Positions 8,687 through 57,310 of a DNA stretch of 64,000 bases are shown piece by piece. Each line of letters opens with the position of its first letter. Position 1 is the stretch's first letter. The notes under the pieces are model-generated. The model searched no databases. It was not told the origin of the DNA and worked only from the letters and a program-made list of their open reading frames with translations. Source of the DNA: Escherichia phage LHE287; the sequence record PP761450.1; one strand, written 5' to 3'. The position numbers and the translations under genes were made by a program.

Positions 8687-11600
8687 TCAGATCTTAATCT
8701 GCATGTTGCCACCCAGGGACTGCTCGTACTCGCTGTATGCGCCTTCCCCGTAGTCTCGTGCCCACTGGTCAGACTGCTGGGCGCTATCCAGAGTCATCAG
8801 GTTTGGTTCAGTCGGGTTGTAACCCTTGGACTTCGCATCCCGGTACAGAGTCTGCAGGTACTGGTTGGCGCGGTCAATCTGAGCTTTGAACTCGCGATAT
8901 GCCCCTTCAGTTGTGTTGCGGCGGAAGGTGATATCCCAGTCCACGTTCAGAGTCTGACCATCACGGCTTACATAGATCTGCCAATCCAGGTCGCGACCTT
9001 TTGGTGCGTTGTCGCGGATGGAGTCGGCGTATGCCGCAAGGTCGTCCTTCGGATTGTGCGACGTGCTTTTCAGAAGTAGTGCATGACCCATACCACCGTT
9101 TGGCTGAAGAGACCATTTTCCTGTTTCTCTTCCCAGGCGTTCTATGTTGTTGAGTTGGTTTATCGACAATTCAGAAGAGTCAAATAATACCACATCACGT
9201 TTTTTGGGGGTTCTCACATAATGGGTGAGATCAATGTCGATCATCCGGTTTATAAATTCTACCACTTCAGCTTGTTTCTTTGGCAATGTGGTATTGATAT
9301 CCGGCTTGTTTGCCACTTTCTCTAGGCGTTTGTTTTCTGCGCTTATCATGGACAGCATAATTTGTGTAACTTTGCCGTCAGACAAGTTGTAATCATTCCA
9401 AATCACTTCACCTTTATCCGTGATGGTTATATCGTTCAAGAACACCTGGTTTGGGTTGTATGACTGACTTTTCAACTGTTGGAGGTTTCTGGAAAGATAT
9501 TCCATTCTTGATGATATTTCATCAATCATACTCTGGACCACATCTTTGTTCAAAGTAAGTTCATATGTCTTCGGATTGTTCAGGGTACGCCCTTTCTGAG
9601 AGACAATTGGGGTGAATGCAACTTTACCTTTGTCGTAGTAATAGGTCACGTTGGTTATCATAGAAGTACCGGCGTATTTTCCCGTTTCGGGGAAATTGAC
9701 ATCCCACCGAATGGACATACCGTTGACAGTCTCACCAAACACCATGGCGTTGCGCGGTATCTTCAAATTATCCAAAACGGATTGTTCCCCAGAATCAGTG
9801 TTCGGTGGGGTGATATTTTTCTGTTTCCACCAGGCAGTCGCCGCCTTCGTAAACTCTTTAGCCACACCAGACGGAATCGGTGGGAGTTTCAAGGTTTTGG
9901 CCAGGACACCCAAGTCTGAGCCGGACACTTCTGCAAAGGATCTTAATTTTGAGGAAGCACCGTAATACACACCATATACTGGAGTGCCAGAACTTGGTAT
10001 CACATTGATACCACCACCATACATACCTGATTTCTCACGGAACTCCAATACTGGTTGTCCATCAGGTGCCGTTTTGTTATACCAACCAACGACGACGTTC
10101 TCCAAGTTCTTTTCAACGTAGTCCGTTGCTGTTTGAACAAAATCATCAATAATCTTGGGGAATCGTTTTGGATCGCTGATGTCAACATTTTCTAACACAC
10201 CCACAGATGGCGGGAATGCTACCCATTTTTCTGCTGTTGCGTTCCAGGCATTAACAGACATCTGGACTGATTGATTACGTCGCGCAATTGACAGAGTCAG
10301 TTTGTAACGGTCTTTCACAAAGTTCTTGATGTATTCATCATCACCAAATAATTTGCCGCCAGCTGCCTTACTGTAGCCAATGTAATTCAGTAAATTGAGC
10401 CACTTGGATTTGGTAAGTTCACCGCTGTTGTCATTGCCGGTGTCATTGCTGGTGTCAACGTCCACCACCAGAATTATTTGAGAACCTTTCTTGAAAGTGT
10501 ACTGATCGTACATGCCTTTCTTCTGTTTGGTCATGGACGCACCGACCAAGTCTTGGTTGGTGAAGCCGCGCTTCATATTCCAAGATACCTCAGTCCCGTC
10601 TGGATATTTGTCAAAATTATAACCATAGAATACGGCTACTTCTTTCGAACCGCTTATCAGGCGGACGTAGTTTCCACGAATCGGGTCGCGCCCGCTCTTC
10701 AACTCCAGACCAGTGTCCGAGCTGTTGTACCACTCGCGGTTGACTTCGATTTCAGAAGAACCAGCCCCGGTTCCCACACCCCGAGCACCAATAGTGGTGT
10801 TGGAGTCAGCTGGCGCGGACTTCTGCTGAGAACCTTTCCAAAATTTTGTGGACGCCATGGTGAAATCATTCAGGATACTGATAGGGACTTGCGGTAATTT
10901 CAACTGACGAGCAATGAAATCAGCACTTTGCCCACGCACAGGTTTCTCATTCATGTATGCGCCAACATACACGCCCGGCTCATTGTAGTGGGGAGCGATA
11001 TTTGCCGTGTTCATGCGGCCTCTCTCCTTACCAGCCCATAACAACATGGGCTGATCCCCGTTTGAAGTTAATTTCCATCCGTTGGAATTATCAACAGAAG
11101 ATGAAGAACCAGCCCCGGTTCCCAAGTTTGTTTTTCTGGAATCTTCTACGTTTAGATTGAACAATTGTTTCCCAGATGAGTCGGAAGCAATAAATTCATA
11201 TTTCTTGCCACTGCGGGTACTCGTGCTGTTAACTTTGATGTTTCCAGTGTATCTTCCTGGATTCGTTTTTTGCATGAAATTGGTAATTGCAGCAGAAGGG
11301 GTTTTCATCCCAGAAATGATCCTAGCTGTCTCGGGATCAGTGAAAGACACTACGAGTTTGCGCCCATCCATCACTGTGATATCATTTCCAGACACCGAAA
11401 TATCCAAGTCTTCCATTTCAGAACGGAAATCAACACCAACAACAATGGTTTGACCAGTTCCACCCACAACGCCATCAACGCTGTTCTGAACCGGAACGTC
11501 ACCGACCTTGTCTGGATCATCCCAGGTGATACCCTGCATCTTCGGACCGTCAAATACCTGAGCCGGATCTTTACCCTTGCGCACAAGCCACACATAACCA

Positions 11601-12061
11601 CGGTCAGGGACAGGCGCGTAGGTCAGGTCCATGACATTCAGTTTCTGTTTCAGGCCGGACTGGCGGATGATCTTAGGAATCAGGGTCATACCGCGATCCA
11701 GCGCTTTCTTAGAGAAGTTGACAGCAAAGCCATCGATGGTCTTGCCCAGAGGAGTCGCCATGAATTGTTTGGTCGCTTCGATCATGGAAGCGATAACGCG
11801 CATTGGGTTCTTGAAGCGAGCGATGGCGTCAGGATAGACGGAGCCGCGCTTCTGGCCGATGAAAACCTGACGAACGCTCTTACCCAGCCCCTGAGGAGTA
11901 TAGAACTGAATGCGGTATTCCTTATCATCTTCGTCGACGAAGGTAAAGAACACATCGCCTGCGTTCTTCTTACCCATGGTCAGCTCATACGGAGCGGAGT
12001 TGAACGCTTCGTCTAACTGATCTCTTTCCTGCATGAACTGGAGGAAACTTAGCTTTGACAT
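8687..12061 (-). CDS. large repeat-containing protein, possibly a fibre/adhesin-type virion protein
   Basis: 1124 aa, G/S/T/N-rich; internal duplication (...LKLPQVPISILNDFTMASTKFWKG... vs ...LKLPPIPSGVAKEFTKAATAWWKQ...; two GTGAGSS segments); CAGGAG SD; function is inference. Confidence 0.6.
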   Translation of the reverse strand: MSKLSFLQFMQERDQLDEAFNSAPYELTMGKKNAGDVFFTFVDEDDKEYRIQFYTPQGLGKSVRQVFIGQKRGSVYPDAIARFKNPMRVIASMIEATKQFMATPLGKTIDGFAVNFSKKALDRGMTLIPKIIRQSGLKQKLNVMDLTYAPVPDRGYVWLVRKGKDPAQVFDGPKMQGITWDDPDKVGDVPVQNSVDGVVGGTGQTIVVGVDFRSEMEDLDISVSGNDITVMDGRKLVVSFTDPETARIISGMKTPSAAITNFMQKTNPGRYTGNIKVNSTSTRSGKKYEFIASDSSGKQLFNLNVEDSRKTNLGTGAGSSSSVDNSNGWKLTSNGDQPMLLWAGKERGRMNTANIAPHYNEPGVYVGAYMNEKPVRGQSADFIARQLKLPQVPISILNDFTMASTKFWKGSQQKSAPADSNTTIGARGVGTGAGSSEIEVNREWYNSSDTGLELKSGRDPIRGNYVRLISGSKEVAVFYGYNFDKYPDGTEVSWNMKRGFTNQDLVGASMTKQKKGMYDQYTFKKGSQIILVVDVDTSNDTGNDNSGELTKSKWLNLLNYIGYSKAAGGKLFGDDEYIKNFVKDRYKLTLSIARRNQSVQMSVNAWNATAEKWVAFPPSVGVLENVDISDPKRFPKIIDDFVQTATDYVEKNLENVVVGWYNKTAPDGQPVLEFREKSGMYGGGINVIPSSGTPVYGVYYGASSKLRSFAEVSGSDLGVLAKTLKLPPIPSGVAKEFTKAATAWWKQKNITPPNTDSGEQSVLDNLKIPRNAMVFGETVNGMSIRWDVNFPETGKYAGTSMITNVTYYYDKGKVAFTPIVSQKGRTLNNPKTYELTLNKDVVQSMIDEISSRMEYLSRNLQQLKSQSYNPNQVFLNDITITDKGEVIWNDYNLSDGKVTQIMLSMISAENKRLEKVANKPDINTTLPKKQAEVVEFINRMIDIDLTHYVRTPKKRDVVLFDSSELSINQLNNIERLGRETGKWSLQPNGGMGHALLLKSTSHNPKDDLAAYADSIRDNAPKGRDLDWQIYVSRDGQTLNVDWDITFRRNTTEGAYREFKAQIDRANQYLQTLYRDAKSKGYNPTEPNLMTLDSAQQSDQWARDYGEGAYSEYEQSLGGNMQIKI

Positions 12062-12136
12062 TTTATATCTCCTGATTGAATTAATGGCGGTTTCTTCTAA
12101 TTAGCGAAACCAAAAGGGAGCGTCAGCCCCCTTATC

Positions 12137-12472
12137 TTATTTTTGAACTTGGGCTACAGACATCGCCCAGAGCGGGAGGGTGTGGGGGTCCAGGGCTTCC
12201 AGTAGATATTCGACGCGCTCTGACATGATACCTTCAGGGAAGTTTACTTCTTCTGGTTCGTTGTTGGCCGTCCAGCCCAGAGATAACCCTTCAGCGTGAT
12301 GAATGATATAAACGAAGTCGCCTGGTTCGTAGTCCTTTTCCATCAGGGCGAAGAAATCTTCCATTTCTTCGTCGGAGAAGTAGTAGATGCGAGGTACGGA
12401 GCCGTCAGCAAAGTGCTCAGCACCCTGGAAGGCAAACATGTCATCGGCGGTGAAGTTCTTGAGTTGTGTCAT
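12137..12472 (-). CDS. hypothetical protein (112 aa), moron-like
   Basis: ATG 12472 inside conserved leader ...AGGAACTATATCATG shared with loci at 57.2 and 47.9 kb; own promoter and terminator. Confidence 0.55.
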   Translation of the reverse strand: MTQLKNFTADDMFAFQGAEHFADGSVPRIYYFSDEEMEDFFALMEKDYEPGDFVYIIHHAEGLSLGWTANNEPEEVNFPEGIMSERVEYLLEALDPHTLPLWAMSVAQVQK

Positions 12473-12514
12473 GATATAGTTCCTGCTTTTCAAGTTGGTG
12501 TTGTACTGCTTATG
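12473..12514 (-). repeat. conserved 5' leader, cassette copy A
   Basis: minus strand ATAAGCAGTACAACACCAACTTGAAAAGCAGGAACTATATC-ATG; near-identical at 57179-57220, related at 47921-47963. Confidence 0.8.
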
Positions 12515-12520
12515 GAATGA

Positions 12521-12550
12521 AGTATAGGGAAGGATATTGAAGAAGTAAAG
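12521..12550 (-). promoter_or_regulatory. early-type promoter, cassette copy A (-35 CTTTAC, -10 TATACT)
   Basis: minus strand CTTTACttcttcaatatccttcccTATACT followed by conserved 45-nt leader to ATG 12472. Confidence 0.55.
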
Positions 12551-12564
12551 GGGCAAAAGCCCCT
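12539..12564 (-). terminator. terminator hairpin upstream of cassette A promoter
   Basis: AGGGGC-AAAA-GCCCCT flanked by T/A runs. Confidence 0.5.
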
Positions 12565-12578
12565 TTTATTGAATTATT

Positions 12579-13217
12579 TTACGGCGTCAGATTCACAACC
12601 GGAATGTGGGATCGAATACCTGCGATGATGTCCTTCAGCCGAGGATTCCATCCATCCACCAAACGGGGGAGAGCGATAGCGCCAGGCTGGACCAAAATGA
12701 TGTCGCTGCCTGTGATATTGTGCTGAGGGAACTGGGCAAGGTACTGCTCCATGGTGACACCCTCATCAATCAGAACTGCACCGACGTCAGACGATGCGTA
12801 GGTTGCACCCAGGCCGTCAACACCCCATGCCAAGATACCCCAGTCAGGGATGTTAGCTTCAGATGTGATGGTGAATCCAAACACGGTGTTCAGCGAAGTA
12901 AAGGAGTAGACATCGTGGGTGATGTCATACACCAGATACCCCTTGGCCAGCATATCGGCAAAGATCGCGTCCGTATCGCCAGCAGCCGGAGTCGGTACAG
13001 TAAACAACAGCTCGCCATCAGGAGGAGCAGGATACGTGCCGAGGGCATAGAGGCACCATGCGTCAATACACTTCTTGATAAATGCCTCTGGCGCGACATA
13101 ATCAGCAAGGCGAACCGTACCTGAGTACTCTGATACGATAATGCCTTCCTTCGCACCCTGTAGAGCAATGAAGACCAAGATATGTTCATATCCGGCCTGA
13201 GATGGAGTGATGTTCAT
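12579..13217 (-). CDS. hypothetical protein (212 aa)
   Basis: ATG 13217 overlaps upstream stop (TAATG); AAGAGGA SD. Confidence 0.55.
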   Translation of the reverse strand: MNITPSQAGYEHILVFIALQGAKEGIIVSEYSGTVRLADYVAPEAFIKKCIDAWCLYALGTYPAPPDGELLFTVPTPAAGDTDAIFADMLAKGYLVYDITHDVYSFTSLNTVFGFTITSEANIPDWGILAWGVDGLGATYASSDVGAVLIDEGVTMEQYLAQFPQHNITGSDIILVQPGAIALPRLVDGWNPRLKDIIAGIRSHIPVVNLTP

Positions 13218-13831
13218 TATCTTGTCCTCTTCAGTTTCTCTATTGTGTGCTTGTTCATGGCGATCACCTGAGGATCTACCTCGGAGATGGTCCGGCCTTC
13301 GAAAGACACACATTTCTGAAGATATTTAGCTTTCTTCACGACGTCGGCAGCATAAGCGTTCGATGCGGGATTACGGGCGAAGCCAGCATTGTAAGAGGAG
13401 AGGGATTTGCGGATATTCTGATTGTGATAGGTCAGCCAGAACTGCATCTCATCGAGGGCGGCTTGCGCGGCATATTCTTGGTCGGTCAGCAACTTTATGG
13501 CGACATTGGCATAACACTTGCGATTCTTACAACCTTCGCGATCACCAACTGTCTTCACCTTGTTCTGAAAGGCTCCCATGTTGGCCGCCTTGAGGCCGTA
13601 TCGCATTGACACTACATCTTCGCCAGCGCGGCTCTCTCGCCAAGATATGGCGGCCAGCGTGTAGCCAAGATCTTGTGTCTTGCCTACGTGATAGGCGGTT
13701 GCCATCGTATTAAGTTGTTGCTCGGAGAAATTATAAACACATTGACTTGTATTTTGGGAAGCGTGCACATTCCCGCTGGCAATGGTAAAGGTCACGGACA
13801 AGGCCATGGCCTTCAACGTTGTCATCGTCAT
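13217..13831 (-). CDS. secreted protein, possibly lytic-transglycosylase-like
   Basis: N-terminal signal-peptide-like segment MTMTTLKAMALSVTFTIASGNVHAS; ISWRESRAG...MGAFQ loosely resembles SLT ES...GxMQ pattern; AAGGAA SD. Confidence 0.45.
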   Translation of the reverse strand: MTMTTLKAMALSVTFTIASGNVHASQNTSQCVYNFSEQQLNTMATAYHVGKTQDLGYTLAAISWRESRAGEDVVSMRYGLKAANMGAFQNKVKTVGDREGCKNRKCYANVAIKLLTDQEYAAQAALDEMQFWLTYHNQNIRKSLSSYNAGFARNPASNAYAADVVKKAKYLQKCVSFEGRTISEVDPQVIAMNKHTIEKLKRTR

Positions 13832-26363: not shown

Positions 26364-26734
26364 AACGTACCCCCGACAGAGATCAAGAACTCTTCTTGCA
26401 TGGTCTTGACCGGGTGGTGGTTGCGGGTTTCGAACATGAAGCCCCAGCCACCGTCGGCGACGTTGCCAAAGGTCTTGACGCCAAAGGACTTCGTCCCGTT
26501 GGAGCAGGAATAGATGTCCAGGACGTATGGGCTACCCTGATTGTCGATCCCACGATTCACGTCGTCTGATACGCAGCGCTCAATCATCTTCCCGTTCTTA
26601 TACAGAACGAGGTCTTGGCCATACGCCTTGAAAGCATAAACACCGTTGGTAGACACTCCGGTGATGACAGGAGGGGCGGAAACAGCAGCAAAGGAAGCGC
26701 CCAGCAGGGCAACAGCGAGGATTAACTTTTTCAT
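26360..26734 (-). CDS. secreted protein (124 aa)
   Basis: ATG 26734; signal peptide MKKLILAVALLGASFAAVSA. Confidence 0.55.
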   Translation of the reverse strand: MKKLILAVALLGASFAAVSAPPVITGVSTNGVYAFKAYGQDLVLYKNGKMIERCVSDDVNRGIDNQGSPYVLDIYSCSNGTKSFGVKTFGNVADGGWGFMFETRNHHPVKTMQEEFLISVGGTL

Positions 26735-26749
26735 GATATAGTCTCTTGG

Positions 26750-26778
26750 TTTCAAATAGACGGGGTAATCATACCCCG
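26750..26778 (-). terminator. rho-independent terminator after 26794..27033
   Basis: CGGGGTA-ATCA-TACCCCG then TCTATTTG on minus strand. Confidence 0.65.
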
Positions 26779-27033: not shown

Positions 27034-27084
27034 GATATAATCTTACCTTTCAACCCGGTGAACCCATCGTTCGCCAGTTATTGA

Positions 27085-27114
27085 ATAATACGCATTTACC
27101 TTATAGAAGTAAAC
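27085..27114 (-). promoter_or_regulatory. early-type promoter in 57-bp repeat copy 1 (-35 GTTTAC, -10 TATTAT)
   Basis: minus strand GTTTACttctataaggtaaatgcgTATTAT upstream of 26794..27033. Confidence 0.55.
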
Positions 27115-27118
27115 CCCT

Positions 27119-27149
27119 AAAAGTAAAAATCCCCAACAAACGTTGGGGA
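27119..27149 (-). terminator. rho-independent terminator (repeat copy 1)
   Basis: CCCCAAC-AAAC-GTTGGGG then ATTTTTAC on minus strand. Confidence 0.7.
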
Positions 27150-27166
27150 TTTAATAAAAGTTATGC

Positions 27167-27391
27167 CTATTTAATTTCTCGGCTTGAATTTTCTAGTTCT
27201 AATTTTCTTATAGCGGAAATTCTGCCTTCATCAGTTGCGGGAAACTCCCAAACAGCACGACGCCCATTGTTGGTATCACAACTTGCCAGCCAGCAGAAAT
27301 TAGAGGGGTCCTTAAACAAGACCAACTTCGGATTTCCTAAATTGATGAGGTTAAACGGGGTGAGGTCAACAACACATGATATAGCAGACAT
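27167..27391 (-). CDS. hypothetical small protein (74 aa)
   Basis: flanked by both copies of 57-bp promoter/terminator repeat; GAAGG SD. Confidence 0.5.
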   Translation of the reverse strand: MSAISCVVDLTPFNLINLGNPKLVLFKDPSNFCWLASCDTNNGRRAVWEFPATDEGRISAIRKLELENSSREIK

Positions 27392-27440
27392 AACATATAC
27401 CTTCTTTCAATGAACGGGAACGCCCCGATCTATGAATTCA

Positions 27441-27470
27441 ATAATACGCATTTACCTTATAGAAGTAAAC
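27441..27470 (-). promoter_or_regulatory. early-type promoter in 57-bp repeat copy 2 (-35 GTTTAC, -10 TATTAT)
   Basis: identical to copy 1; upstream of 27167..27391. Confidence 0.55.
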
Positions 27471-27474
27471 CCCT

Positions 27475-27505
27475 AAAAGTAAAAATCCCCAACGTTTGTT
27501 GGGGA
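27475..27505 (-). terminator. rho-independent terminator after ACP-like gene (repeat copy 2)
   Basis: CCCCAAC-GTTT-GTTGGGG then ATTTTTAC on minus strand. Confidence 0.7.
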
Positions 27506-27511
27506 CTTCTG

Positions 27512-38732: not shown

Positions 38733-39197
38733 TTATTCGCTTTTTGCCTTCGTAGGCCGGATGATGTATTTTGGAACCAGTTTCCATTCAGGAACCTGAT
38801 CGTGTTTAACCACTTTAATGCGAGACATATCGGCTGCTTCAGTGACCTGCTCAGGATGAATGACCTTCACCATGTTCCACTGCTCCAGCAGCTTGATGAT
38901 TCGGTTCATCCTCAGGACATCTTCGCGGTTAAATCCGTTGTAATGCCCGTCCAGCATAAATAGATGCTTAAAGTGGACGATATAATACTTGCCACACTTA
39001 TGAAGAATATGGCAAGTCTGATACAGAGTATTCGGCTCTTGGCGCGTGTTTACCCCAATTCGACTCAGTGTTTCCTTGATCCCCAGGAATATACCTGGCC
39101 GATCTTGGTTCAATTGAACTTCAACCATACAATCAACGATGCTGGCCTCATCGTTGACTGCTGAAATATTCAATATGTCTAGCGTATTACGCGCCAT
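38733..39197 (-). CDS. regA: translational repressor RegA
   Basis: YQTCHILHKCGKYYIVHFKHLF and EWKLVPKYIIRP resemble T4 RegA (YQSCHILQKKGLYYIVHFKEM, EWKLVPKYTIGN); first ATG has AAGGGGA SD, internal start at 39128 is alternative. Confidence 0.75.
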   Translation of the reverse strand: MARNTLDILNISAVNDEASIVDCMVEVQLNQDRPGIFLGIKETLSRIGVNTRQEPNTLYQTCHILHKCGKYYIVHFKHLFMLDGHYNGFNREDVLRMNRIIKLLEQWNMVKVIHPEQVTEAADMSRIKVVKHDQVPEWKLVPKYIIRPTKAKSE

Positions 39198-45719: not shown

Positions 45720-46095
45720 AATTCCTCTCCTGCGGCATGGCGATGAAGGGAAGATTCCATACCTATCAGCAAGTATTTATTACTCTCAGAACAACAGCAT
45801 CATTATCACCTTTAATCCATCATTCTACGCCAAGCTGAAGCAACAAATGGTTGGACGACTGGGTACAACATCAGATATAATCGTGACGTTCAAGATCATG
45901 AATGACTCAGATAAACCAGTACGAATCGCAACTCAGGGTGTGTTCGTTAACAACGAAGCGGTTGGAAATGGGATGAGTATCTTTGAAGTTAACCCAGGGG
46001 GAACGATCTTGATCAGACTGAGTAATGTGGGTGTGAACTCCCTGCTGTTGGATGGCATCGAACCAGTGGGAGTTCTTCCGGCGCGGGAGCACTGA
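45688..46095 (+). CDS. hypothetical protein (about 135 aa), plus strand
   Basis: C-terminal half of track ORF 45280..46095 looks protein-like and ends abutting next minus-strand stop; start uncertain. Confidence 0.35.
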   Translation: MSTLKPYWKTTIPLLRHGDEGKIPYLSASIYYSQNNSIIITFNPSFYAKLKQQMVGRLGTTSDIIVTFKIMNDSDKPVRIATQGVFVNNEAVGNGMSIFEVNPGGTILIRLSNVGVNSLLLDGIEPVGVLPAREH

Positions 46096-46824
46096 TTACT
46101 TCAGCGCGTTCTTCAGATTATCGGAACCGATGCTGTTGATGACACCTCCGGCGCAGATATCTTTCGCCCACTCTGATATCACGTTGGCAAAAGAGAAGTT
46201 AAGACACTTACCAACCATGTCTTGGATATGGGCTAACTCTGCTGCAATACCGTTCGTGATGTCTTGAGCAATAGAGGCTACTGATGCGACAGCAGTGTCG
46301 ATGGCTTGAGTAACTTCAGCAGCCAGTGCCCGAATAGCATCAAGACCAGCACTGACACCCTGAGCTACCAACTCAGCCAGCTCATTCATCTTGTTTGTGA
46401 TAGTTGTGAGAACACTTTGCATGGTGTTGATCCACTGTTTGCCGAGGTTCTGAATAACCCCAAATGCATTATTGATCAGATCACAGTTGTTCGGTTCTCG
46501 ACCTATAGACTTCAGGGCGGACTTATACGACACAGATGTACCGATGCGGGAATATGCCTCGTTCACTGACTGGTCGCCATAGTTGTTCAAAGTAGTGATG
46601 CTGTTGTTGGCTGAGTTGAACATTGCTGTAGATTCGTTGAGTTTGGCTGTAGTCAACCCACCTGCCGTCAGCGCTTCCTGAATCTGCGCATTTCCGGTGT
46701 TAGCCAGTGACGCTGCAGTCGCCTTACCACTGGTGATTAACCCCTGTGAGGCGCTGCTGAGGGACGGGAGAGGATTGGTAAAGGCGTTGCCCTGTGATAG
46801 GGCGTCATAGATCTGTGCGTTCAT
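46096..46824 (-). CDS. hypothetical A/S/T/N-rich protein (243 aa), possibly structural
   Basis: ATG 46824 immediately after 10-bp-stem terminator hairpin. Confidence 0.55.
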   Translation of the reverse strand: MNAQIYDALSQGNAFTNPLPSLSSASQGLITSGKATAASLANTGNAQIQEALTAGGLTTAKLNESTAMFNSANNSITTLNNYGDQSVNEAYSRIGTSVSYKSALKSIGREPNNCDLINNAFGVIQNLGKQWINTMQSVLTTITNKMNELAELVAQGVSAGLDAIRALAAEVTQAIDTAVASVASIAQDITNGIAAELAHIQDMVGKCLNFSFANVISEWAKDICAGGVINSIGSDNLKNALK

Positions 46825-46856
46825 AAGAAAATACCCCCATGGATGATGGGGGTATT
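46821..46856 (-). terminator. rho-independent terminator
   Basis: 10-bp stem AATACCCCCA/TGGGGGTATT then TTTTCTT on minus strand. Confidence 0.6.
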
Positions 46857-46862
46857 TAGGGA

Positions 46863-47033
46863 TCATGGTAGTTTGTAAACGAAGTTGGACCAGAACTTAC
46901 GAACAAACTTCTTGACATAAACCATTCGGTTGGCGTATTCCCCATCCTTCAGGTCATTGTAGGTCTCGATCCCTACCGCGCCCAAGAAGTACGCCGTGAA
47001 GATATAGCAGAACAGATTGATGACGACAAACAT
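46863..47033 (-). CDS. small membrane protein (57 aa)
   Basis: ATG 47033 with GGAG SD; hydrophobic helix FVVINLFCYIFTAYFLGAVGI. Confidence 0.4.
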   Translation of the reverse strand: MFVVINLFCYIFTAYFLGAVGIETYNDLKDGEYANRMVYVKKFVRKFWSNFVYKLP

Positions 47034-47072
47034 GATGTATCTCCGCTGTGTGCTCAAATTATTTATGATATG

Positions 47073-47495
47073 TTACAAAAGGCGCTTGGTCTTCGGCTTA
47101 CCCATTAGAGTGATATCCACAGGGAGGCCAGCTTTCTTGCAACGGTTGATCATGTCCAGGGTGCCAGTGGACGAACCATCCCACATCGCAATCGGATACA
47201 CTTCCAGCTTGGTCTGTCTGACGAGATCCAATGCCTTGTCTAACATGTCCTGATTGCGTTTGTTGCCCATCCCTTTCCCATACTTTTCATAATAGCTCGG
47301 AGGTATTGGCATAGGAGTGATATGAACATAATTGATTTCAGCCCAATCACGGCAAATCTTGTCCACACCAGAGGCTTCACCCTCAATCAGTGTATAGACC
47401 TCACGAGGATCCAAGAGTTCGTCCAGCTTGGCGAATACCTTATCCCGCTCGGTGATTGAGCGGGAACCCGTAATGAGAACGATATACTTCTTCAT
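47073..47495 (-). CDS. Rossmann-like SLOG/YpsA-family protein
   Basis: start at MKKYIVLITGSRS; motifs IVLITGSRS ... LIEGEASGVDK. Confidence 0.45.
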   Translation of the reverse strand: MKKYIVLITGSRSITERDKVFAKLDELLDPREVYTLIEGEASGVDKICRDWAEINYVHITPMPIPPSYYEKYGKGMGNKRNQDMLDKALDLVRQTKLEVYPIAMWDGSSTGTLDMINRCKKAGLPVDITLMGKPKTKRLL

Positions 47496-47500
47496 AGAAC

Positions 47501-47821
47501 TCACAGCGCCCCAAGATTGCCGATTACGTACAGGGAGCACAGAGGAGTGCCTGACGAACGCGGTTCGATCGTCATCCCGCTCAGGCGGATCAGTTCCAGT
47601 AAGCCGTCAGTGGTCTGATACGCGCGTGTCGAACCGTTCGGTCGATATAGCTCCAGCTCAGTTCGCCCTTCCTTTATTGCATTTCGAATGCGAGTGAACA
47701 CGCTGTGGTCGCCGAACTTCTGTTTCAGAAGATCCAGCTTGGTGGTCAGGCGGCGACGTGGTTTGCGCGCACGAGGGTTCTCTTTTACGACCGCTTCTAA
47801 AATCGGGATGCTGTTAGCCAT
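47501..47821 (-). CDS. hypothetical basic protein (106 aa)
   Basis: GAGGA SD; downstream of cassette copy C and 8-bp-stem leader hairpin. Confidence 0.5.
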   Translation of the reverse strand: MANSIPILEAVVKENPRARKPRRRLTTKLDLLKQKFGDHSVFTRIRNAIKEGRTELELYRPNGSTRAYQTTDGLLELIRLSGMTIEPRSSGTPLCSLYVIGNLGAL

Positions 47822-47920
47822 GATAAAGTCCTCTATTTGTAGGGGATAGGGTATGCGGTTAACATACCCTGTTCAAAGGTTTAGAACAAATTGCTGCAAT
47901 GTTACTTTGTAACGAGAGTG

Positions 47921-47963
47921 GTGATAGTTCCTTCATTTCAGAGTCAGTGTTGTGCTGCTTATG
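47921..47963 (-). repeat. conserved 5' leader, cassette copy C (start codon lost)
   Basis: ATAAGCAGCACAACACTGACTCTGAAATGAAGGAACTATCACC, no ATG at the homologous position. Confidence 0.7.
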
Positions 47964-47969
47964 GAATGA

Positions 47970-47998
47970 AGTATACGGGGTTTATTGAAGAATTAAAC
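47970..47998 (-). promoter_or_regulatory. early-type promoter, cassette copy C (-35 GTTTAA, -10 TATACT)
   Basis: minus strand GTTTAAttcttcaataaaccccgTATACT; -35 sits inside a 10-bp-stem hairpin (47975-48003). Confidence 0.5.
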
Positions 47999-48023
47999 CC
48001 CGTATATTGAATAAATTTAAAAT

Positions 48024-48260
48024 TTATTTGAAGCGATCAGGAAGGGTGTCGTGAACCTCGGCGCTCAGCACCAGAAACTTACCATCCGTCGTTGGGAAGC
48101 AATAGTCTTTCTTGATGTGACGCAAGTGTTCAGCTACAGCTGCTACGCAGTCATCTGTCACGTCGGTCTTCTCACCAACCCACATGCTGGTTTTGGTGTT
48201 CAACCTGCCCTGGAATATAGTACCAGTGAGAGGACTTGCGCCGATCTTTTTGATAATCAT
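48024..48260 (-). CDS. hypothetical protein (78 aa)
   Basis: ORF only. Confidence 0.45.
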   Translation of the reverse strand: MIIKKIGASPLTGTIFQGRLNTKTSMWVGEKTDVTDDCVAAVAEHLRHIKKDYCFPTTDGKFLVLSAEVHDTLPDRFK

Positions 48261-48268
48261 GTTTAACC

Positions 48269-48712
48269 TCAGTTGTTAACGCGGAATGCCGCCGGATACC
48301 CACCTGGATGCCCTTCTCCGGTCACGAAGACCTCGTACCGGGCACCTTTAACCAAACCAGGCAAATTGCCTGAGTCAAGCAGATAGCGGATTTTATCCAT
48401 AGTCTCCATCCAGGACTTAGCAGGTTCGGCCTCGGCCTCCCCACGGTTGATTTTGATCACACCCTCTGAATAATACTTCCCATTGTCCTTCATGTAGTAC
48501 AGCTTGACATCGATAAACTGTGGGGATGGAACTTCTGTCCAACCCTCATCGTTCAAATCCTGGCGATCATTGTCGAAACTCTGAAAATCAACATCACCGC
48601 ATGCCAGGCGATAATCTTTGAATTTACGGAAACCTTCCACCTTGTCCCCAACGGAGCTACGGAAGAACTGTTTCTTGGCGGGACTAATGAAAATGAAATT
48701 CTTGTTACACAT
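48269..48712 (-). CDS. hypothetical protein (147 aa)
   Basis: ATG 48712 with AGGAAGGA SD and ...CTATATCATG context. Confidence 0.5.
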   Translation of the reverse strand: MCNKNFIFISPAKKQFFRSSVGDKVEGFRKFKDYRLACGDVDFQSFDNDRQDLNDEGWTEVPSPQFIDVKLYYMKDNGKYYSEGVIKINRGEAEAEPAKSWMETMDKIRYLLDSGNLPGLVKGARYEVFVTGEGHPGGYPAAFRVNN

Positions 48713-48812
48713 GATATAGATCCTTCCTTTCAAAGAATGTTGTGTTCGTCGATATCGGACTGCGTTGCAATCTCCCAGCGGACGATGTTCTCGGTTGTGA
48801 CGAAATCACGGT

Positions 48813-48956
48813 TCAGGTGAGAGGCTGGCACATACACCATCGTGTCTCGACCATGAAGTAACACTGCTCATTGTTACAAGAATCAACGTAAACCTCGATG
48901 AGGCACACCTCGGCAACACCGGCTTTCGGCTTCTTCACAGTCTTTTTCAAGTACAT
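48813..48956 (-). CDS. small Cys-rich ORF (47 aa), not in ORF track
   Basis: own translation MYLKKTVKKPKAGVAEVCLIEVYVDSCNNEQCYFMVETRWCMCQPLT; GAGGG SD. Confidence 0.3.
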   Translation of the reverse strand: MYLKKTVKKPKAGVAEVCLIEVYVDSCNNEQCYFMVETRWCMCQPLT

Positions 48957-49019
48957 GGTACAACCCTCGGATAGTAGACGGGGCAATAATACCTCTCACC
49001 CCGTTATTGAAATGTTCTT

Positions 49020-50492
49020 TTAGTTCAAGACATATTTGATCAGTCCACAATTCCAAATCCTGACCAGCCCGGCTTCGGTTGCTAACTGGCTTTCTGTTTT
49101 GCCTTCTACGTCATACCCCATGCGAGCAAATGAACCTTTTCTGAAACCGAATTTGTGCTCACGCATAAATGTGCCAGGCTTGTGGTATTTGTAGTCTGGC
49201 TTCTGTACTTCCTCTTCTACGAATCCGTGGGATAGGTAAATGTTGGACAACCTGCTTACAACACACCTATCCCCAAAGGAATAGATTTTGGTGTCGGTAA
49301 ATTTTCTTCTGAAGTGTGAAAGAAGTTTACTGAATGCCCCGTGGCAATCATTAGAGGCAAATCTGACTAATTCCAGGCCATCTTTCCTTTTAGTGAATAG
49401 CATCACGGCTTGTATGACCCCACTCTTGTCAATTAACGACAAATGGTGGGTGGAAGAAACGGAACCTTGTATGTGGTGGTTGTCTAAAAACTCCCTCAAG
49501 CCGCTTATATTCCCCCAAACGACTTTGTGTTGGCGAGCATATGACGCGGGTGTTTTAATGCCAAGTTTAGCTTTCAGAAGAGATTTGACCACTTCCTGTT
49601 TCTCAACCCATTCATCTTCCCAGATGTGGATCAACTGGATACCCTGAGTTTCACATATTTCAGTCTTTTCCAGGTGATAATGTTTCTCTTTAAAAACTTC
49701 TGAATGCCAGTACAGGCCATTAAATTCGATCGCCAATTTGTGTTCAGGGCAATAGATATCCAGTTGTTTACCGGATAATATACTGTAATCAGAAACAGTG
49801 TTTACAACTCCCATTGAGGTGAGAAACTCGGATATTTCCTTTTCATAAGAAGATTTCTTGTTCCTGATAGAACCATTGCTGAACAACGCACGTTTTAGTA
49901 TGTTCGAGTTTTTCATAGGGTTGTCAACACCATAACGTTCTTGTAACGTTGCCAACGCCTTCTCCCTCACACCAGGTAATTGTAGTGTGGAGCAGCTTCC
50001 GTATTTGGATATATTCGAATTCTCTATGGCTTTCCGACCAATCCCACCTTTACACATAGAAACCTGATAACATTCTTCAGAACAATATGTTCTGTAATCT
50101 TTATTATTGATATAAAAGTTGGTTTCCTTGGAACACACCGGGCATATTTTCACGGTTCTATTGTACAGCCAAGCTGTGACTTTACAAGCCAAATCTTGTA
50201 GGGTGTTGTGGGTATTGGCGAACACTAAAAGGTCTACATTGATGTGCTTCATAAGCAGTTCAGATTTGCATTTTTGGATATCCAATTTGTTGTTCTTGGT
50301 AAACATATATTTGTAGAAAAATTGGCGATATGATTCCTCGTCAGACAATTCATTCACTGCTTCAAGGAAACCTTCCGGGAGGTTCTTTAGGGTGTTCGAT
50401 GCGAAGGTCTTGCAAGCATCTGAACAAAATTTCTTATCTTTCCTGGATGCTTTGAACTGTTCATGGCAGACACTACAGATTACCTGATACAT
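49020..50492 (-). CDS. nuclease-like protein with N-terminal zinc ribbons; candidate free-standing homing endonuclease
   Basis: ATG 50492 with GGAGGA SD; CxxC pairs (CSVCHEQ, CSDAC, CPVCSKE, CSEEC); IEFNGLYWHSE block; AT-rich codon usage versus neighbours. Confidence 0.55.
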   Translation of the reverse strand: MYQVICSVCHEQFKASRKDKKFCSDACKTFASNTLKNLPEGFLEAVNELSDEESYRQFFYKYMFTKNNKLDIQKCKSELLMKHINVDLLVFANTHNTLQDLACKVTAWLYNRTVKICPVCSKETNFYINNKDYRTYCSEECYQVSMCKGGIGRKAIENSNISKYGSCSTLQLPGVREKALATLQERYGVDNPMKNSNILKRALFSNGSIRNKKSSYEKEISEFLTSMGVVNTVSDYSILSGKQLDIYCPEHKLAIEFNGLYWHSEVFKEKHYHLEKTEICETQGIQLIHIWEDEWVEKQEVVKSLLKAKLGIKTPASYARQHKVVWGNISGLREFLDNHHIQGSVSSTHHLSLIDKSGVIQAVMLFTKRKDGLELVRFASNDCHGAFSKLLSHFRRKFTDTKIYSFGDRCVVSRLSNIYLSHGFVEEEVQKPDYKYHKPGTFMREHKFGFRKGSFARMGYDVEGKTESQLATEAGLVRIWNCGLIKYVLN

Positions 50493-50540
50493 AATTATTC
50501 TCCTCCATATGGTATCTAGTATAACCTGTTCGATAATATG

Positions 50541-50568
50541 AACAAATAAAAACCCCGCCGAAGCGGGG
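50541..50568 (-). terminator. strong rho-independent terminator after major capsid gene
   Basis: CCCCGC-CGAA-GCGGGG then TTTTTATTTGTT on minus strand. Confidence 0.8.
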
Positions 50569-50596
50569 TTTGTCAGGGTTAAGGACAACTATTCGA

Positions 50597-51919: not shown

Positions 51920-52011
51920 GATGGTCATTCCTTACATTGATATTCAGTTAAGTTGAAATTACTTAGTAGTTCAAAATCAAGCCCCCTTTTCGAGGGCTGT
52001 GGCTGCTAAAA

Positions 52012-52863: not shown

Positions 52864-52908
52864 GATTGTTTCCTTCTGAACGATTTTCAGTATTTAGTGA
52901 GGCTGAAT

Positions 52909-53577: not shown

Positions 53578-53584
53578 TCGCTCC

Positions 53585-53890: not shown

Positions 53891-53902
53891 GATACATTCC
53901 TC

Positions 53903-56405: not shown

Positions 56406-56430
56406 GGTCGTTCTCCTCTGAATAGTGTAA

Positions 56431-56438: not shown

Positions 56439-56821
56439 TTTTGAAATAAATGGGGGTTAAAATACCCCAAAGTGAGGATATTTATTATGTCATTCCCCCG
56501 ATAAAATTGTTCATGCTACCACAAACCGTTCACCCCAACCAGGAAGGCTGCGTTGTATTGTAGTGACGAATGTAAATCATTCATGCTGGGAACGATGAAA
56601 CGCAACTCAGATTTATTGGTCAATCTTCCGGCGACCGAAACTGAATGCCGCTCTTGGGTTGATAGTAAACTCAGGAAGAAAGATGGTTCGTTGAACTTGG
56701 ATACGATACAGAAGGAAAACAGAGGATATGCTGGCGATAGAAGCCGGGTTGGGTGTATCTGGGGTGTGGTCTTATCCGGTATGAACTGGAAACTAAAACC
56801 CCGCCTCAGCGGGGTAAACTA

Positions 56822-57178
56822 CTATTTGCGAATGCTAACCTGAGCATAATACACATGATAATCACCATGGGCACGGAAGCTGGTGAGGTGGAATGTGACG
56901 AGGTGGCTCCCGAAAGCTACAACTTTGGTATCTGGGGAGCATAAATCATTAGCCAGTTCACCCAGAACCTTACCACAAAACTCCTCAACGATAGCGTTAA
57001 ATCTGTCAATGTGTGGACTGGTCACCGTCATTGGACCAACATCTGCACAGTAGATCCCTTTTATCATCTTTCCCTGGCTGTCGCGTACTGGCTTTGCAGG
57101 CTGGTAAGGATTGATGCGGCGTTTCAGGTTACAGAGGCCGATTTCTTTCAGGATAGCGTTAATTTCAGTCTTGGTCAT
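56822..57178 (-). CDS. hypothetical protein (118 aa), moron between tube and sheath genes
   Basis: ATG 57178 inside conserved leader ...GAAGGAACTATATCATG (cassette copy B). Confidence 0.5.
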   Translation of the reverse strand: MTKTEINAILKEIGLCNLKRRINPYQPAKPVRDSQGKMIKGIYCADVGPMTVTSPHIDRFNAIVEEFCGKVLGELANDLCSPDTKVVAFGSHLVTFHLTSFRAHGDYHVYYAQVSIRK

Positions 57179-57220
57179 GATATAGTTCCTTCGTTTCAAG
57201 TTGGTGTCGTACTGCTTATG
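57179..57220 (-). repeat. conserved 5' leader, cassette copy B
   Basis: ATAAGCAGTACGACACCAACTTGAAACGAAGGAACTATATC-ATG. Confidence 0.8.
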
Positions 57221-57226: not shown

Positions 57227-57255
57227 ATTATACGTGAGTTATTGAAGAAGTAAAG
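57227..57255 (-). promoter_or_regulatory. early-type promoter, cassette copy B (-35 CTTTAC, 17 bp, -10 TATAAT)
   Basis: minus strand CTTTACttcttcaataactcacgTATAAT followed by conserved leader to ATG 57178. Confidence 0.6.
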
Positions 57256-57278: not shown

Positions 57279-57305
57279 AAAATTTAAAACCCCGCCGAAG
57301 CGGGG
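57279..57305 (-). terminator. rho-independent terminator, same hairpin as after gp23
   Basis: CCCCGC-CGAA-GCGGGG then TTTTAAATTTTT on minus strand. Confidence 0.8.
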
Positions 57306-57310
57306 TCTTG

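What the first reader, a model, noticed from the sequence alone, without database searches (positions are those of the whole stretch)
12473..12578. Three-copy promoter-leader cassette family driving small moron-like genes (12.5, 47.9 and 57.2 kb)
Three distant loci share the same block on the minus strand: a terminator hairpin, a -35 CTTTAC/GTTTAA, a -10 TATACT/TATAAT, then a near-identical 45-nt leader ATAAGCAG(T/C)AC(A/G)ACAC...GAAGGAACTATATC-ATG. Copies A and B run straight into different small ORFs; copy C has lost the ATG and is followed by an 8-bp-stem hairpin before the next gene. The GTTTAC-type -35 matches T4 early promoters. The conserved leader suggests a shared RNA-level regulatory site or a recombination-mobilised cassette.
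Basis: seen in the sequence. Interest (0 to 1): 0.6.

Follow-up and report, generated by a model that had tools for sequence, protein, structure and literature searches.

The report
Repeated phage promoter-leader gene-swapping cassette
A ~95-base block (terminator hairpin, host-type promoter, unstructured leader and ribosome-binding site) occurs three times in this Ackermannviridae phage window and throughout the family, always ahead of small genes that differ between related phages, so it is probably both an early expression switch and the crossover point where accessory genes are swapped.

Summary
Three minus-strand copies (A 12470-12563, C 47921-48002, B 57176-57254) match one profile at E about 1e-23 each. 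No other full copy is in the window.

The window is an Agtrevirus-like Ackermannviridae phage. The block occurs 3-4 times per genome in 282 phage records of that family, and is absent from E. coli genomes and from Rfam.

The leader is unstructured, so it is not a riboswitch or sRNA.

Comparison with relatives shows what the block does in evolution. The slot behind copy A holds five unrelated small ORFs in different phages, and the slot behind copy C holds three. One cargo family sits behind the cassette at three different loci. Flanking genes are about 70-75% identical where the leader is 91-96% identical, and crossover points fall inside the leader or ribosome-binding region.

In the window, copy C is decaying. 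Its gene has been destroyed by two microhomology deletions and its -35 carries a unique down-mutation.

This matches the PeSL (promoter-early stem-loop) cassettes described for T4-like phages, which I did not find described for Ackermannviridae. Promoter activity, early timing and any RNA-level regulation (a RegA homologue is encoded) are inferred, not shown.

Verdict: a real feature and a new member of a known kind, of moderate interest.

The parts
12550..12563 (-). Copy A stem-loop GGGGC-TTTT-GCCCC. It abuts the -35, and its T-rich 3' side is the -35 itself.
   Evidence: The tool calls it terminator-like on the + strand; on the - strand it narrowly misses the T-run rule. It is conserved at locus A in 15 phages with variable loop sequence.
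12521..12549 (-). Copy A promoter: -35 TTTACT (12544-12549), 17-nt spacer, -10 TATACT (12521-12526).
   Evidence: 9 of 12 consensus matches, the only call in 12000-12700.
12473..12513 (-). Copy A 41-nt leader, ATAAGCAGTACAACACCAACTTGAAAAGCAGGAACTATATC. It runs from the predicted start to just before the ATG and contains the SD AGGA.
   Evidence: Unstructured: MFE -2.5 kcal/mol, z +0.87.
12137..12472 (-). Cargo ORF of copy A, 111 aa, phrog_9866, unknown function.
12114..12133 (-). Terminator hairpin after the A cargo gene. The conserved right boundary of the slot (TTTCGCTAATTA...) begins just beyond it.
57286..57309 (-). Strong terminator (10-bp stem plus T-run) about 30 nt upstream of the copy B promoter. 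It belongs to a three-copy terminator family.
   Evidence: D5.
57227..57254 (-). Copy B promoter: -35 TTTACT, 16-nt spacer, -10 TATAAT.
   Evidence: 10 of 12, the best-scoring call in 46000-59000. The same promoter module is listed as Porf138 in the Ag3 paper's Table S2.
57179..57219 (-). Copy B 41-nt leader, ATAAGCAGTACGACACCAACTTGAAACGAAGGAACTATATC.
   Evidence: MFE -1.5 kcal/mol, z +1.35.
56822..57178 (-). Cargo ORF of copy B, 118 aa, phrog_13016. Relatives of this gene sit behind the cassette at two other loci in other phages.
   Evidence: AF2 pLDDT 92, with no informative fold match.
56798..56815 (-). Terminator after the B cargo gene, a direct repeat of the terminator left of the cassette.
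   Evidence: D5.
47970..48002 (-). Copy C promoter region: CGGGG arm, -35 TTTAAT (47992-47997), spacer ending in the CCCCG arm, -10 TATACT (47970-47975).
   Evidence: The -35 C-to-A change is unique among 24 locus-C copies. The site fails the sigma-70 scan.
47921..47962 (-). Copy C leader, intact as far as GGAACTAT. The ATG is gone.
47885..47924 (-). Remnant of the 93-aa cargo gene (phrog_10263). Relative to ZQ1 there is a 51-bp deletion between ACTAT repeats (junction about 47923/47924) and a 222-bp deletion between ATTTGTT repeats (junction about 47891/47892).
47848..47870 (-). 9-bp hairpin AGGGTATGT-TAACC-GCATACCCT. It is part of the conserved right boundary of the locus C slot, ahead of the next gene (ATG 47819-47821).
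48710..48744 (-). Promoter-less copy of the ribosome-binding module, TTGAAAGGAAGGATCTATATCATG, ahead of ORF 48269-48712.
   Evidence: D2.
26732..26759 (-). Hairpin followed by a promoter-less ribosome-binding module, TTTGAAACCAAGAGACTATATCATG.

Best explanation
The three blocks are paralogous copies of a composite regulatory cassette, the Ackermannviridae counterpart of the PeSL (promoter-early stem-loop) elements of T4-like phages.

Each cassette has four modules:
1. An AT-rich stretch holding the upstream gene's stop codon and a GGGG...CCCC stem-loop, which ends or dampens incoming transcription.
2. A host sigma-70 promoter, TTTACT, 16-17 nt, TATA(A/C)T.
3. A 41-nt A/C-rich leader starting at the predicted start site, CATAAGCAG, and kept free of secondary structure.
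4. A ribosome-binding module, TTGAAA-n-G-m-AGGAAC-TATATC-ATG.

Expression role (inferred): host RNA polymerase starts here without phage factors, so the cargo gene is made early, strongly, and insulated from its neighbours.

Evolutionary role (shown by comparison): the roughly 90 nt are nearly identical between copies and between phages, so they act as a portable homology patch. Homologous recombination within the leader or ribosome-binding module replaces, stacks or removes the small ORF behind it. The other crossover falls in a conserved right-hand boundary, which is a hairpin plus the next gene's ribosome-binding module, or a repeated terminator. Gene conversion keeps the copies alike.

In this window, A and B are intact and each drives a small ORF of unknown function. 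C is decaying: its cargo gene has been destroyed and its -35 weakened.
For: Shown:
- Three copies match one profile at E about 1e-23 each, against no other full copy in 64 kb.
- A 91-nt query finds 809 places in 282 phage records, all Ackermannviridae genera infecting enterobacteria. There is no match in 5,426 E. coli genomes. Of 109 seed matches in bacterial genomes, only one carries the full cassette, and that is an 827-bp contaminant contig.
- Sigma-70 hexamers with correct spacing are called for A (9 of 12) and B (10 of 12, the best in 13 kb), with terminators alongside.
- The promoter fits the published PeSL consensus TTTACW-N17-TAYWAT. The copy A hairpin fits the published stem-loop form A3-4G3-loop-C3T3-4.
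- The leader is less structured than shuffled controls in all four intact versions tested: MFE -1.5 to -3.9 kcal/mol, z +0.6 to +2.0. There is no Rfam match.
- The locus A slot holds five mutually unrelated ORF families and locus C holds three. The diverged copies D and E also have different genes behind them in ZQ1 and CBA120.
- phrog_13016 lies behind the cassette at three loci: after the sheath gene region here, at locus A in L007 and L028, and after the capsid gene in L018.
- Conservation exceeds that of the flanks. At locus C, phage pairs with 70% identical upstream genes have 97.8% identical promoters and 90.9% identical leaders. At locus A, 73% identical upstream genes go with 93.7% identical leaders.
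- L013 and L038 have flanks about 75% identical but a cargo gene 92-100% identical, which indicates recent transfer with the left breakpoint in the cassette. L007 and CBA120 are 94-100% identical up to the leader, then unrelated, then 84-94% identical.
- Both promoter types occur with both cargo genes (A or B type, MKIILD or MNAIKT), and leaders are mosaic, for example locus C in Taipeivirus-like phages.
- Tandem stacks are joined by the bare ribosome-binding module (L029, L014).
- The B unit is bracketed by direct repeats of one terminator family.

Inferred: promoter activity, early timing, terminator activity, and homologous recombination as the exchange mechanism.
Against: - There is no transcript or reporter evidence for any copy, and I found no Ackermannviridae transcriptome in the library.
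- The promoter lacks a TGn extended -10, and its -35 matches only 4 of 6 consensus positions.
- Copy numbers are low, about 5 per genome plus 2 of a second type, against dozens of PeSLs in RB49/phi1. Most slots are not flanked by two cassettes, so the mini-circle route is plausible only for B.
- The two deletions that destroyed the cargo of copy C used 5-7-bp microhomologies, not cassette homology.
- The sheath-tube site alternates with homing endonuclease genes, which could drive turnover there.
- High leader identity could come from purifying selection on an unknown RNA function rather than from gene conversion. These data cannot separate the two.
Confidence: 0.7

Rival explanations
1. The conserved leader and ribosome-binding module is mainly an RNA-level operator. 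A phage regulator, most plausibly the RegA-type translational repressor encoded at 38733-39197, binds the shared sequence around the SD and AUG and shuts off this set of early messages together. Sequence identity would then be kept by selection for that binding site. This is compatible with the cassette also being a promoter.
For: - Conservation starts at the predicted +1 and runs to the ATG, beyond what an SD needs.
- The leader is 91-94% identical where neighbouring genes are 70-73% identical.
- The module CTATATCATG, allowing one mismatch, occurs 11 times against 3.2 expected. Ten of these are on the coding strand, and most of them sit at start codons.
- A RegA homologue is present (PF01818, E 2e-34).
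- An unstructured target is what a single-strand RNA-binding repressor needs.
Against: - No binding data exist.
- T4 RegA sites are short and AU-rich around the AUG (own knowledge), and nothing ties them to the 5' leader CATAAGCAGYACRACAC.
- That 5' part is replaced by other sequence in the diverged copies D and E and in Ag3 Porf138, while the promoter and ribosome-binding module stay. It is therefore dispensable.
- Mosaic leaders point to gene conversion.
Confidence: 0.15
2. These are ordinary paralogous strong promoters with no role in recombination. The copies stay alike only because promoter and ribosome-binding function are under selection. Gene turnover behind them comes from illegitimate recombination and homing-endonuclease activity, and is seen there simply because those sites tolerate change.
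For: - Both deletions in copy C's cargo used 5-7-bp microhomologies.
- The sheath-tube gap carries homing endonuclease genes in fGh-Ecl02, CBA120 and ZQ1.
- The B block's outer boundaries against fGh-Ecl02 are not cassette sequences.
Against: - Left breakpoints of replacements fall repeatedly within the 41-nt leader or at the ATG.
- Four-gamete combinations of promoter type and cargo exist.
- The cargo gene is 92-100% identical between phages whose flanks are about 75% identical.
- Leaders are mosaic between paralogous loci.
- The 5' leader is kept at about 94% identity although the D and E copies show it is not required for the promoter or ribosome-binding function.
Confidence: 0.12
3. The leader encodes a structured cis-regulatory RNA (riboswitch, thermosensor or attenuator) or a small RNA.
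For: Only the sequence conservation of a transcribed non-coding stretch.
Against: - MFE is -1.5 to -3.9 kcal/mol for 65 nt, weaker than shuffled controls in every intact copy (z +0.6 to +2.0).
- No Rfam family reaches its threshold, and the only matches in the relaxed search have E of 0.8 or more.
- The variable positions show no paired pattern.
Confidence: 0.02
4. The block is a self-mobile element (MITE-like or transposon end), or a site for a dedicated site-specific recombinase as in integron attC sites.
For: - The same terminator-promoter-gene-terminator unit sits at different loci in different phages.
- The slots behave like cassette arrays.
Against: - There are no terminal inverted repeats or target-site duplications around the copies.
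- The family was found only in Ackermannviridae.
- Breakpoints are spread along the leader rather than at one fixed point, as expected for homologous rather than site-specific exchange.
- T4-type recombination proteins (UvsX, gp46/47 homologues) are annotated in the close relative ZQ1. No integrase is annotated in ZQ1, though I did not search for one.
Confidence: 0.03

Closest known systems
PeSL (promoter-early stem-loop) cassettes of T4-like phages RB49/phi1, T4/PST and KVP40/nt-1 (Arbiol et al. 2010, PMC2839356; Comeau et al. 2014, PMC4122927)
   Same: - The composite layout is the same: AT-rich region with the upstream stop codon, a GGGG...CCCC stem-loop in variable register with the promoter, sigma-70-type hexamers, then the SD and start codon, with about 100 bp conserved.
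- The promoter fits the published T4/PST PeSL consensus TTTACW-N17-TAYWAT. The copy A stem-loop fits the nt-1 form A3-4G3-loop-C3T3-4.
- The cassettes sit ahead of small ORFs of unknown function that differ between related phages. Crossovers fall between the -10 and the ATG, as mapped for PeSL mini-circles (one search compared).
   Different: - The host family differs: Ackermannviridae, which is not covered in either paper.
- There are only about 5 copies per genome plus 2 of a second type, rather than dozens clustered in hyperplastic regions.
- The copies are single rather than flanking pairs, except for the terminator repeats around B and the 27-kb pair.
- The transcribed leader is much more strongly conserved, and this holds across several genera.
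- Promoter and terminator activity and mini-circles were shown experimentally for PeSLs. None of that is shown here.
Morons of lambdoid phages (Juhala/Hendrix concept, as summarised in PMC2839356)
   Same: A single accessory gene with its own promoter and terminator sits between conserved genes. Copy B with its ORF lies between the tail sheath and tail tube genes and is bracketed by terminators.
   Different: Morons are thought to move by illegitimate recombination, and their regulatory sequences are not shared between morons. Here the regulatory block itself is the repeated, conserved part.
T4 early promoters (Hinton 2010, PMC2988021)
   Same: They are recognised by unmodified host sigma-70 polymerase, have an AT-rich upstream region and a TTTAC-type -35 (own knowledge for the hexamer), and are expected to fire immediately after infection.
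   Different: - T4 early promoters are described as UP/-35/TGn/-10 promoters. The cassette has no TGn ahead of its -10.
- T4 early promoters do not share a conserved transcribed leader.

Membership tests
PeSL cassette | Sigma-70-like -35 and -10 hexamers at proper spacing, with an AT-rich region upstream | tested here: met
   A: TTTACT-17-TATACT, 9 of 12. B: TTTACT-16-TATAAT, 10 of 12. The family consensus fits TTTACW-N17-TAYWAT. The window's copy C fails because of TTTAAT.
PeSL cassette | GC-rich stem-loop (GGGG...CCCC type) within or next to the promoter, in variable register | tested here: met
   A: GGGGC-TTTT-GCCCC abutting the -35. C: CGGGG and CCCCG arms bracketing the -35 and spacer. 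B: no adjacent stem, but a 10-bp terminator 30 nt upstream.
PeSL cassette | SD and start codon of the downstream gene form the 3' end, with conservation spread over about 100 bp | tested here: met
   Conserved from the hairpin to the ATG, about 95 nt.
PeSL cassette | Many copies per genome, clustered in hyperplastic regions | tested here: inconclusive
   ZQ1 has 3 near-identical and 2 diverged copies, and CBA120 has 2 plus 2, with a second 2-copy type at 27 kb. These are far fewer than in RB49/phi1 and are scattered, including inside the structural module.
PeSL cassette | Preferential association with ORFans that differ between related phages | tested here: met
   Five unrelated cargo families at locus A and three at locus C. 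Loci D and E also differ between ZQ1 and CBA120. All are PHROGs of unknown function with no Pfam match.
PeSL cassette | Insertions, deletions and replacements with the crossover inside the element | tested here: met
   Identity profiles and the cassette alignment place left breakpoints between the -10 and the ATG.
PeSL cassette | Demonstrated promoter and terminator activity | not testable with these tools
   Needs reporter fusions or transcript mapping. No transcriptome paper was found.
PeSL cassette | Formation of excised mini-circles by recombination between flanking elements | not testable with these tools
   Needs inverse PCR on infected cells. The B unit has the required flanking direct repeats, 56798-56815 and 57286-57309.
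Moron | Accessory gene with its own promoter and terminator inserted between conserved genes, and absent from close relatives | tested here: met
   B lies between the sheath and tube genes and is flanked by terminators. It is absent in fGh-Ecl02, whose tube gene is 98.7% identical, and in CBA120.
T4-type early promoter | UP element, -35, TGn extended -10 and -10 together (PMC2988021) | tested here: not met
   There is no TG ahead of the -10 in any copy. AT-rich upstream DNA and the -35 and -10 are present.
T4-type early promoter | Transcription immediately after infection, independent of phage protein synthesis | not testable with these tools
   Needs RNA from infected cells with and without chloramphenicol.
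Any Rfam RNA family | Covariance-model score at or above the gathering threshold | tested here: not met
   No matches in the whole window. Around copy A the only matches in the relaxed search have E of 0.8 or more, on the opposite strand.

The most novel reading that the evidence does not exclude
The leader and ribosome-binding module would be more than a homology patch. It would be the operator of a dedicated post-transcriptional circuit. The phage's RegA-type repressor, or another early protein, would recognise the shared unstructured sequence and switch off all cassette-driven accessory genes together. Any gene captured behind the cassette would then inherit promoter, translation signal and timed shut-off in one step. 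That would make an integron-like capture-and-regulate system working by homologous recombination.
Probability: 0.12. Interest if true: 0.7.

Novelty: new member of a known kind. Interest (0 to 1): 0.45.

Why it matters
- Promoters. The CBA120 genome paper states that early promoters could not be identified by informatics in ViI-like phages (PMC3184105). The Ag3 paper lists one of these promoters only as an isolated hit. The cassette gives a concrete, testable set of about five immediate-early promoters per genome with a shared leader.
- Accessory genes. It marks the slots where these phages, several of which are therapy or biocontrol candidates (Kuttervirus, Agtrevirus, Limestonevirus, Taipeivirus), exchange small unknown genes. 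These are the natural places to look for host-takeover or anti-defence functions.
- Engineering. The slots tolerate unrelated inserts and come with a native promoter, leader and ribosome-binding site, so they offer ready sites and expression signals for payloads.
- Evolution. It extends PeSL-type modular shuffling from the T4-like phages proper to a separate family.

Tried and rejected
- Structured RNA: folding of four intact leaders and the long copy C leader showed no excess structure in the leader, and Rfam was empty.
- Host origin: there was no match in E. coli complete genomes. The 17-mer seed hit 109 bacterial contigs, within my estimate of a few hundred chance matches in 596 Gb. Only one of them, an 827-bp contaminant contig, carried the cassette.
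- Promoter 15-mer scan: scanning viral contigs with TTTACTTCTTCAATA was too AT-rich and unspecific.
- T7 gene 10 leader: I checked the recalled T7 sequence against T7 records. The alignment score of the cassette's ribosome-binding region ranked only 31st to 130th among 632 background ORF starts, so I dropped this lead.
- RegB cleavage: the leader has no GGAG. The 'putative RegB' annotated in ZQ1 next to copy A (window 13217-13831) only weakly resembles an SLT transglycosylase.
- Literature: searches for Ackermannviridae transcription start sites or RNA-seq, and for the motif strings themselves, found nothing relevant.
Full report
**1. What the window is**

Megablast of 11500-13500 finds 173 phage records. 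The best matches, at 96-98% identity, are Escherichia, Salmonella and Enterobacter phages vB_CECAV_050, fGh-Ecl02, vB_EcoM-ZQ1 and PC3. Shigella phage Ag3 follows at 93%. ZQ1 is filed under Ackermannviridae, Aglimvirinae. Window position 1 corresponds to about ZQ1 79467, and nearly all genes run on the minus strand.

**2. Check of the observation**

- The leader core ATAAGCAGYACRACAC matches 3 times against 0.10 expected. GAAGGAACTATATC, allowing up to 2 mismatches, matches 4 times against 0.35 expected.
- A profile built from the three copies finds them at E 7e-24 to 1e-23. The next hit (48711-48744, E 0.006) covers only the last 24 profile positions.
- The block is the largest direct-repeat family in the window.

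The anatomy needs some correction.

- In A, the stem-loop GGGGC-TTTT-GCCCC (12550-12563) abuts the -35 (12544-12549).
- In B, no stem adjoins the promoter. A 10-bp terminator (57286-57309) lies about 30 nt upstream.
- In C, the arms CGGGG and CCCCG bracket the -35 and spacer.

The consensus scan calls A (TTTACT-17-TATACT, 9 of 12) and B (TTTACT-16-TATAAT, 10 of 12, the best of 20 calls in 13 kb). It does not call C, whose -35 is TTTAAT.

With the -10 ending at 12521 and 57227, the start should be the C or A at 12514/12513 and 57220/57219. Sequence identity between the copies therefore resumes at the first transcribed bases (CATAAGCAG) and runs 41 nt to the ATG.

**3. Not an RNA structure, and not from the host**

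Leaders plus 20 nt of coding sequence fold at only -1.5 to -3.9 kcal/mol. They are weaker than dinucleotide shuffles in all four intact versions (z +0.63 to +1.96). Rfam gives nothing at gathering thresholds in the whole window, and only chance-level hits around copy A.

The block has no match in 5,426 complete E. coli genomes. A 17-mer seed scan of 185,579 bacterial and archaeal genomes gave 109 hits, within my estimate of a few hundred chance matches for 596 Gb. Only an 827-bp contig, evidently phage contamination, carried the full block.

**4. Distribution**

A 91-nt query (copy B) finds 809 places in 282 phage records, all covering at least 80% of the query. They are from Salmonella, Klebsiella, Escherichia, Dickeya, Serratia, Shigella and Enterobacter phages with genomes of about 150-160 kb, that is, Ackermannviridae, at 2-4 places per record.

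In the complete ZQ1 genome the profile finds the three near-identical copies plus two diverged full-length ones.

- D lies upstream of ZQ1 16198.
- E lies at ZQ1 79018-79109, just left of the window's start.

CBA120 has copies at loci A and C plus D and E, and none between the sheath and tube genes. A regular-expression scan for the promoter (xTTTAC-15 to 17-TATAMT) finds essentially only these sites in both genomes.

D and E keep the promoter and the ribosome-binding end but have a different 5' leader. Ag3's Porf138 has the identical promoter module followed by a hairpin and the ribosome-binding module. The block is therefore modular: stem-loop, promoter, 5' leader and ribosome-binding module.

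The last module also stands alone. CTATATCATG, allowing one mismatch, occurs 11 times against 3.2 expected. Ten of these are on the coding strand, and most of them sit at start codons.

**5. What lies behind the cassettes**

From IMG/VR loci plus ZQ1 and CBA120 I collected 44 cassettes with their flanks. The upstream gene defines the locus.

- Locus A lies after a DUF7270 gene ending ...IPVVNPTP.
- Locus C lies after a DUF7446 gene ending ...LPDRFK.
- Locus B lies after a 100-aa ORF that follows the tail sheath gene.

Behind locus A there are five cargo families in different phages: phrog_9866 (this window), 5704, 31745, 13302 and 13016. Behind locus C there are three: 6516, 10263 and 17538. 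These families show no BLASTP similarity to one another and have no Pfam match. D and E also have different first genes in ZQ1 and CBA120.

phrog_13016 sits behind the cassette at three loci.

- Locus B in this window.
- Locus A in L007 and L028.
- Directly after the major capsid gene in the Menlow-like L018. In the window that site holds the same terminator followed by a homing-endonuclease-like ORF.

Between the window and L018 the whole unit is preserved: terminator, AT-rich spacer, promoter, leader, gene and terminator.

**6. Evidence for exchange through the cassette**

- Identity profiles.
  - Window against CBA120 at locus A: flanks about 75%, leader window 88%, cargo unalignable, right flank about 75%.
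  - L007 against CBA120: 94-100% up to the leader, unrelated cargo, then 84-94%.
  - L013 against L038: flanks about 75%, cassette 96%, cargo 92-100%. This indicates a recent transfer between diverged phages with its left end in the cassette.
- Binned over all pairs.
  - At locus C, pairs with 70% upstream-gene identity have promoters 97.8% and leaders 90.9% identical.
  - At locus A, pairs at 73% have promoters 75% and leaders 93.7% identical. Two promoter types there follow the flanking lineage.
- The cassette alignment shows all four combinations of promoter type (A or B) with cargo (MKIILD or MNAIKT). The same cargo also occurs with different ribosome-binding variants (L007 against L028). 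Locus C leaders in Taipeivirus-like phages carry the A/B-type 5' half.
- Right boundaries are conserved too. At locus A it is the sequence TTTCGCTAATTA... after a cargo-specific hairpin. At locus C it is ATTTGTTCTAAACC..., a hairpin, and the next gene's ribosome-binding site. In stacked arrays the junction is the bare module TTTGAACCGAAGGAACTATATCATG.
- The B unit is bracketed by two copies of one terminator family (D5).

**7. Copy C in this window**

Against ZQ1, the 93-aa cargo gene has lost 51 bp between ACTAT repeats, which removes the ATG, and 222 bp between ATTTGTT repeats. The -35 C-to-A change is unique among 24 locus-C copies and drops the site below the scan threshold. Copy C now can only feed the next gene (47501-47821) through a leader of about 140 nt.

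**8. Mechanism**

The best-supported reading is a PeSL-type cassette.

- Expression side (inferred). An upstream stem-loop insulates the unit. A host-type promoter fires without phage factors. An unstructured A/C-rich leader with AGGA placed 8 nt before the AUG gives efficient translation.
- Evolution side (shown by comparison). The shared 90 nt act as the crossover site for replacement, stacking and loss of small ORFs, and gene conversion homogenises the copies. T4-type recombination genes (UvsX, gp46/47) are annotated in ZQ1.

Rivals:

- An RNA operator for the RegA homologue (38733-39197, PF01818). This is not excluded and could coexist with the main reading.
- Ordinary promoters with unrelated turnover. 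The microhomology deletions and neighbouring homing endonucleases argue for it, and breakpoint clustering argues against it.
- A structured RNA, which I reject.
- A self-mobile or site-specific element. No inverted repeats, no target duplications and no fixed junctions were seen.

**9. Comparison with what is known**

PeSLs were defined in RB49/phi1 as composite elements about 100 bp long. They have an AT-rich region, a sigma-70-like promoter, a GGGG...CCCC stem-loop in five alternative registers, an SD and a start codon. They are associated with ORFans that differ between phages, and crossovers were mapped between the -10 and the ATG (PMC2839356).

The 2014 paper gives TTTACW-N17-TAYWAT for T4/PST and A3-4G3-loop-C3T3-4 for nt-1 (PMC4122927). 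The cassette here fits both. Neither paper mentions ViI-like phages.

The CBA120 paper says early promoters could not be found. The Ag3 paper lists one such promoter among nine. The LIMEstone paper mentions an insertion with its own promoter and terminator. I found no paper containing the motif strings.

Differences from PeSLs are the low copy number, mostly single rather than paired elements, and a much more conserved leader across genera. Promoter and terminator activity and mini-circles are untested here.

**10. Verdict**

It is a new member of a known kind: PeSL-like cassettes in Ackermannviridae.

Interest is moderate. It supplies candidate immediate-early promoters and accessory-gene exchange slots for a phage family where neither was defined. 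The concept itself is already published for T4-like phages, and function is inferred from sequence only.

Noticed in passing
window 27080-27152 and 27436-27508 (minus strand): A second cassette type. It is a 73-nt direct repeat (92% identical) made of a terminator hairpin CCCCAAC...GTTGGGG plus T-run, then TTTACT-16-TATAAG. The two copies bracket a small ORF (27180-27392), and the second copy precedes ORF start 27031. At the orthologous site, Ag3 has the type-B promoter module instead.
   Followed up: partly
window 50550-50571, 56798-56815, 57286-57309 (minus strand): A terminator family, AAACCCCGC-loop-GCGGGGTTTT. One copy lies after the major capsid gene and two bracket the copy B unit. In the Menlow-like locus L018 the same terminator after the capsid gene is followed by the cassette and a phrog_13016 gene.
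   Followed up: partly
window 49020-50588 (minus strand); ZQ1 133605-135389; L164 2782-3480: Homing-endonuclease-like genes occupy the same variable sites as the morons. The window has a 522-aa ORF after the capsid terminator. fGh-Ecl02 and CBA120 have a GIY-YIG gene in the sheath-tube gap. ZQ1 has an extra endonuclease gene next to the B moron, where the window has only a 415-nt gap (56406-56821).
   Followed up: partly
window 38733-39197 (minus strand): A RegA-type translational repressor homologue (PF01818, E 2e-34). The gene just downstream starts with CTAAATCATG, a one-mismatch match to the ribosome-binding module.
   Followed up: partly
window 13217-13831 (minus strand): This ORF is annotated 'putative RegB' in ZQ1. 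It matches only the SLT transglycosylase domain, weakly (E 4e-4, below the cut-off). Other records call it Vs.1-like or a lytic transglycosylase, so the RegB label looks wrong.
   Followed up: partly
window 52082-52225: Short tandem-like repeats TCATCGTCATC... (families D3 and D8). On the coding strand they would encode an acidic Asp/Glu-rich stretch.
   Followed up: no
L173 (Flavobacterium poyangense assembly, 827-bp contig); phage records OR844942/OR844944 'Enterococcus phage Efm 3-10': Public records that carry Ackermannviridae sequence, including a full cassette in L173, under unrelated organism names. These are probably contamination or mislabelling.
   Followed up: no
window 8687-12061 (minus strand): A 1124-aa ORF of unknown function immediately downstream of the locus A slot. 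It is conserved across the family, and its upstream region forms the slot's right boundary.
   Followed up: no
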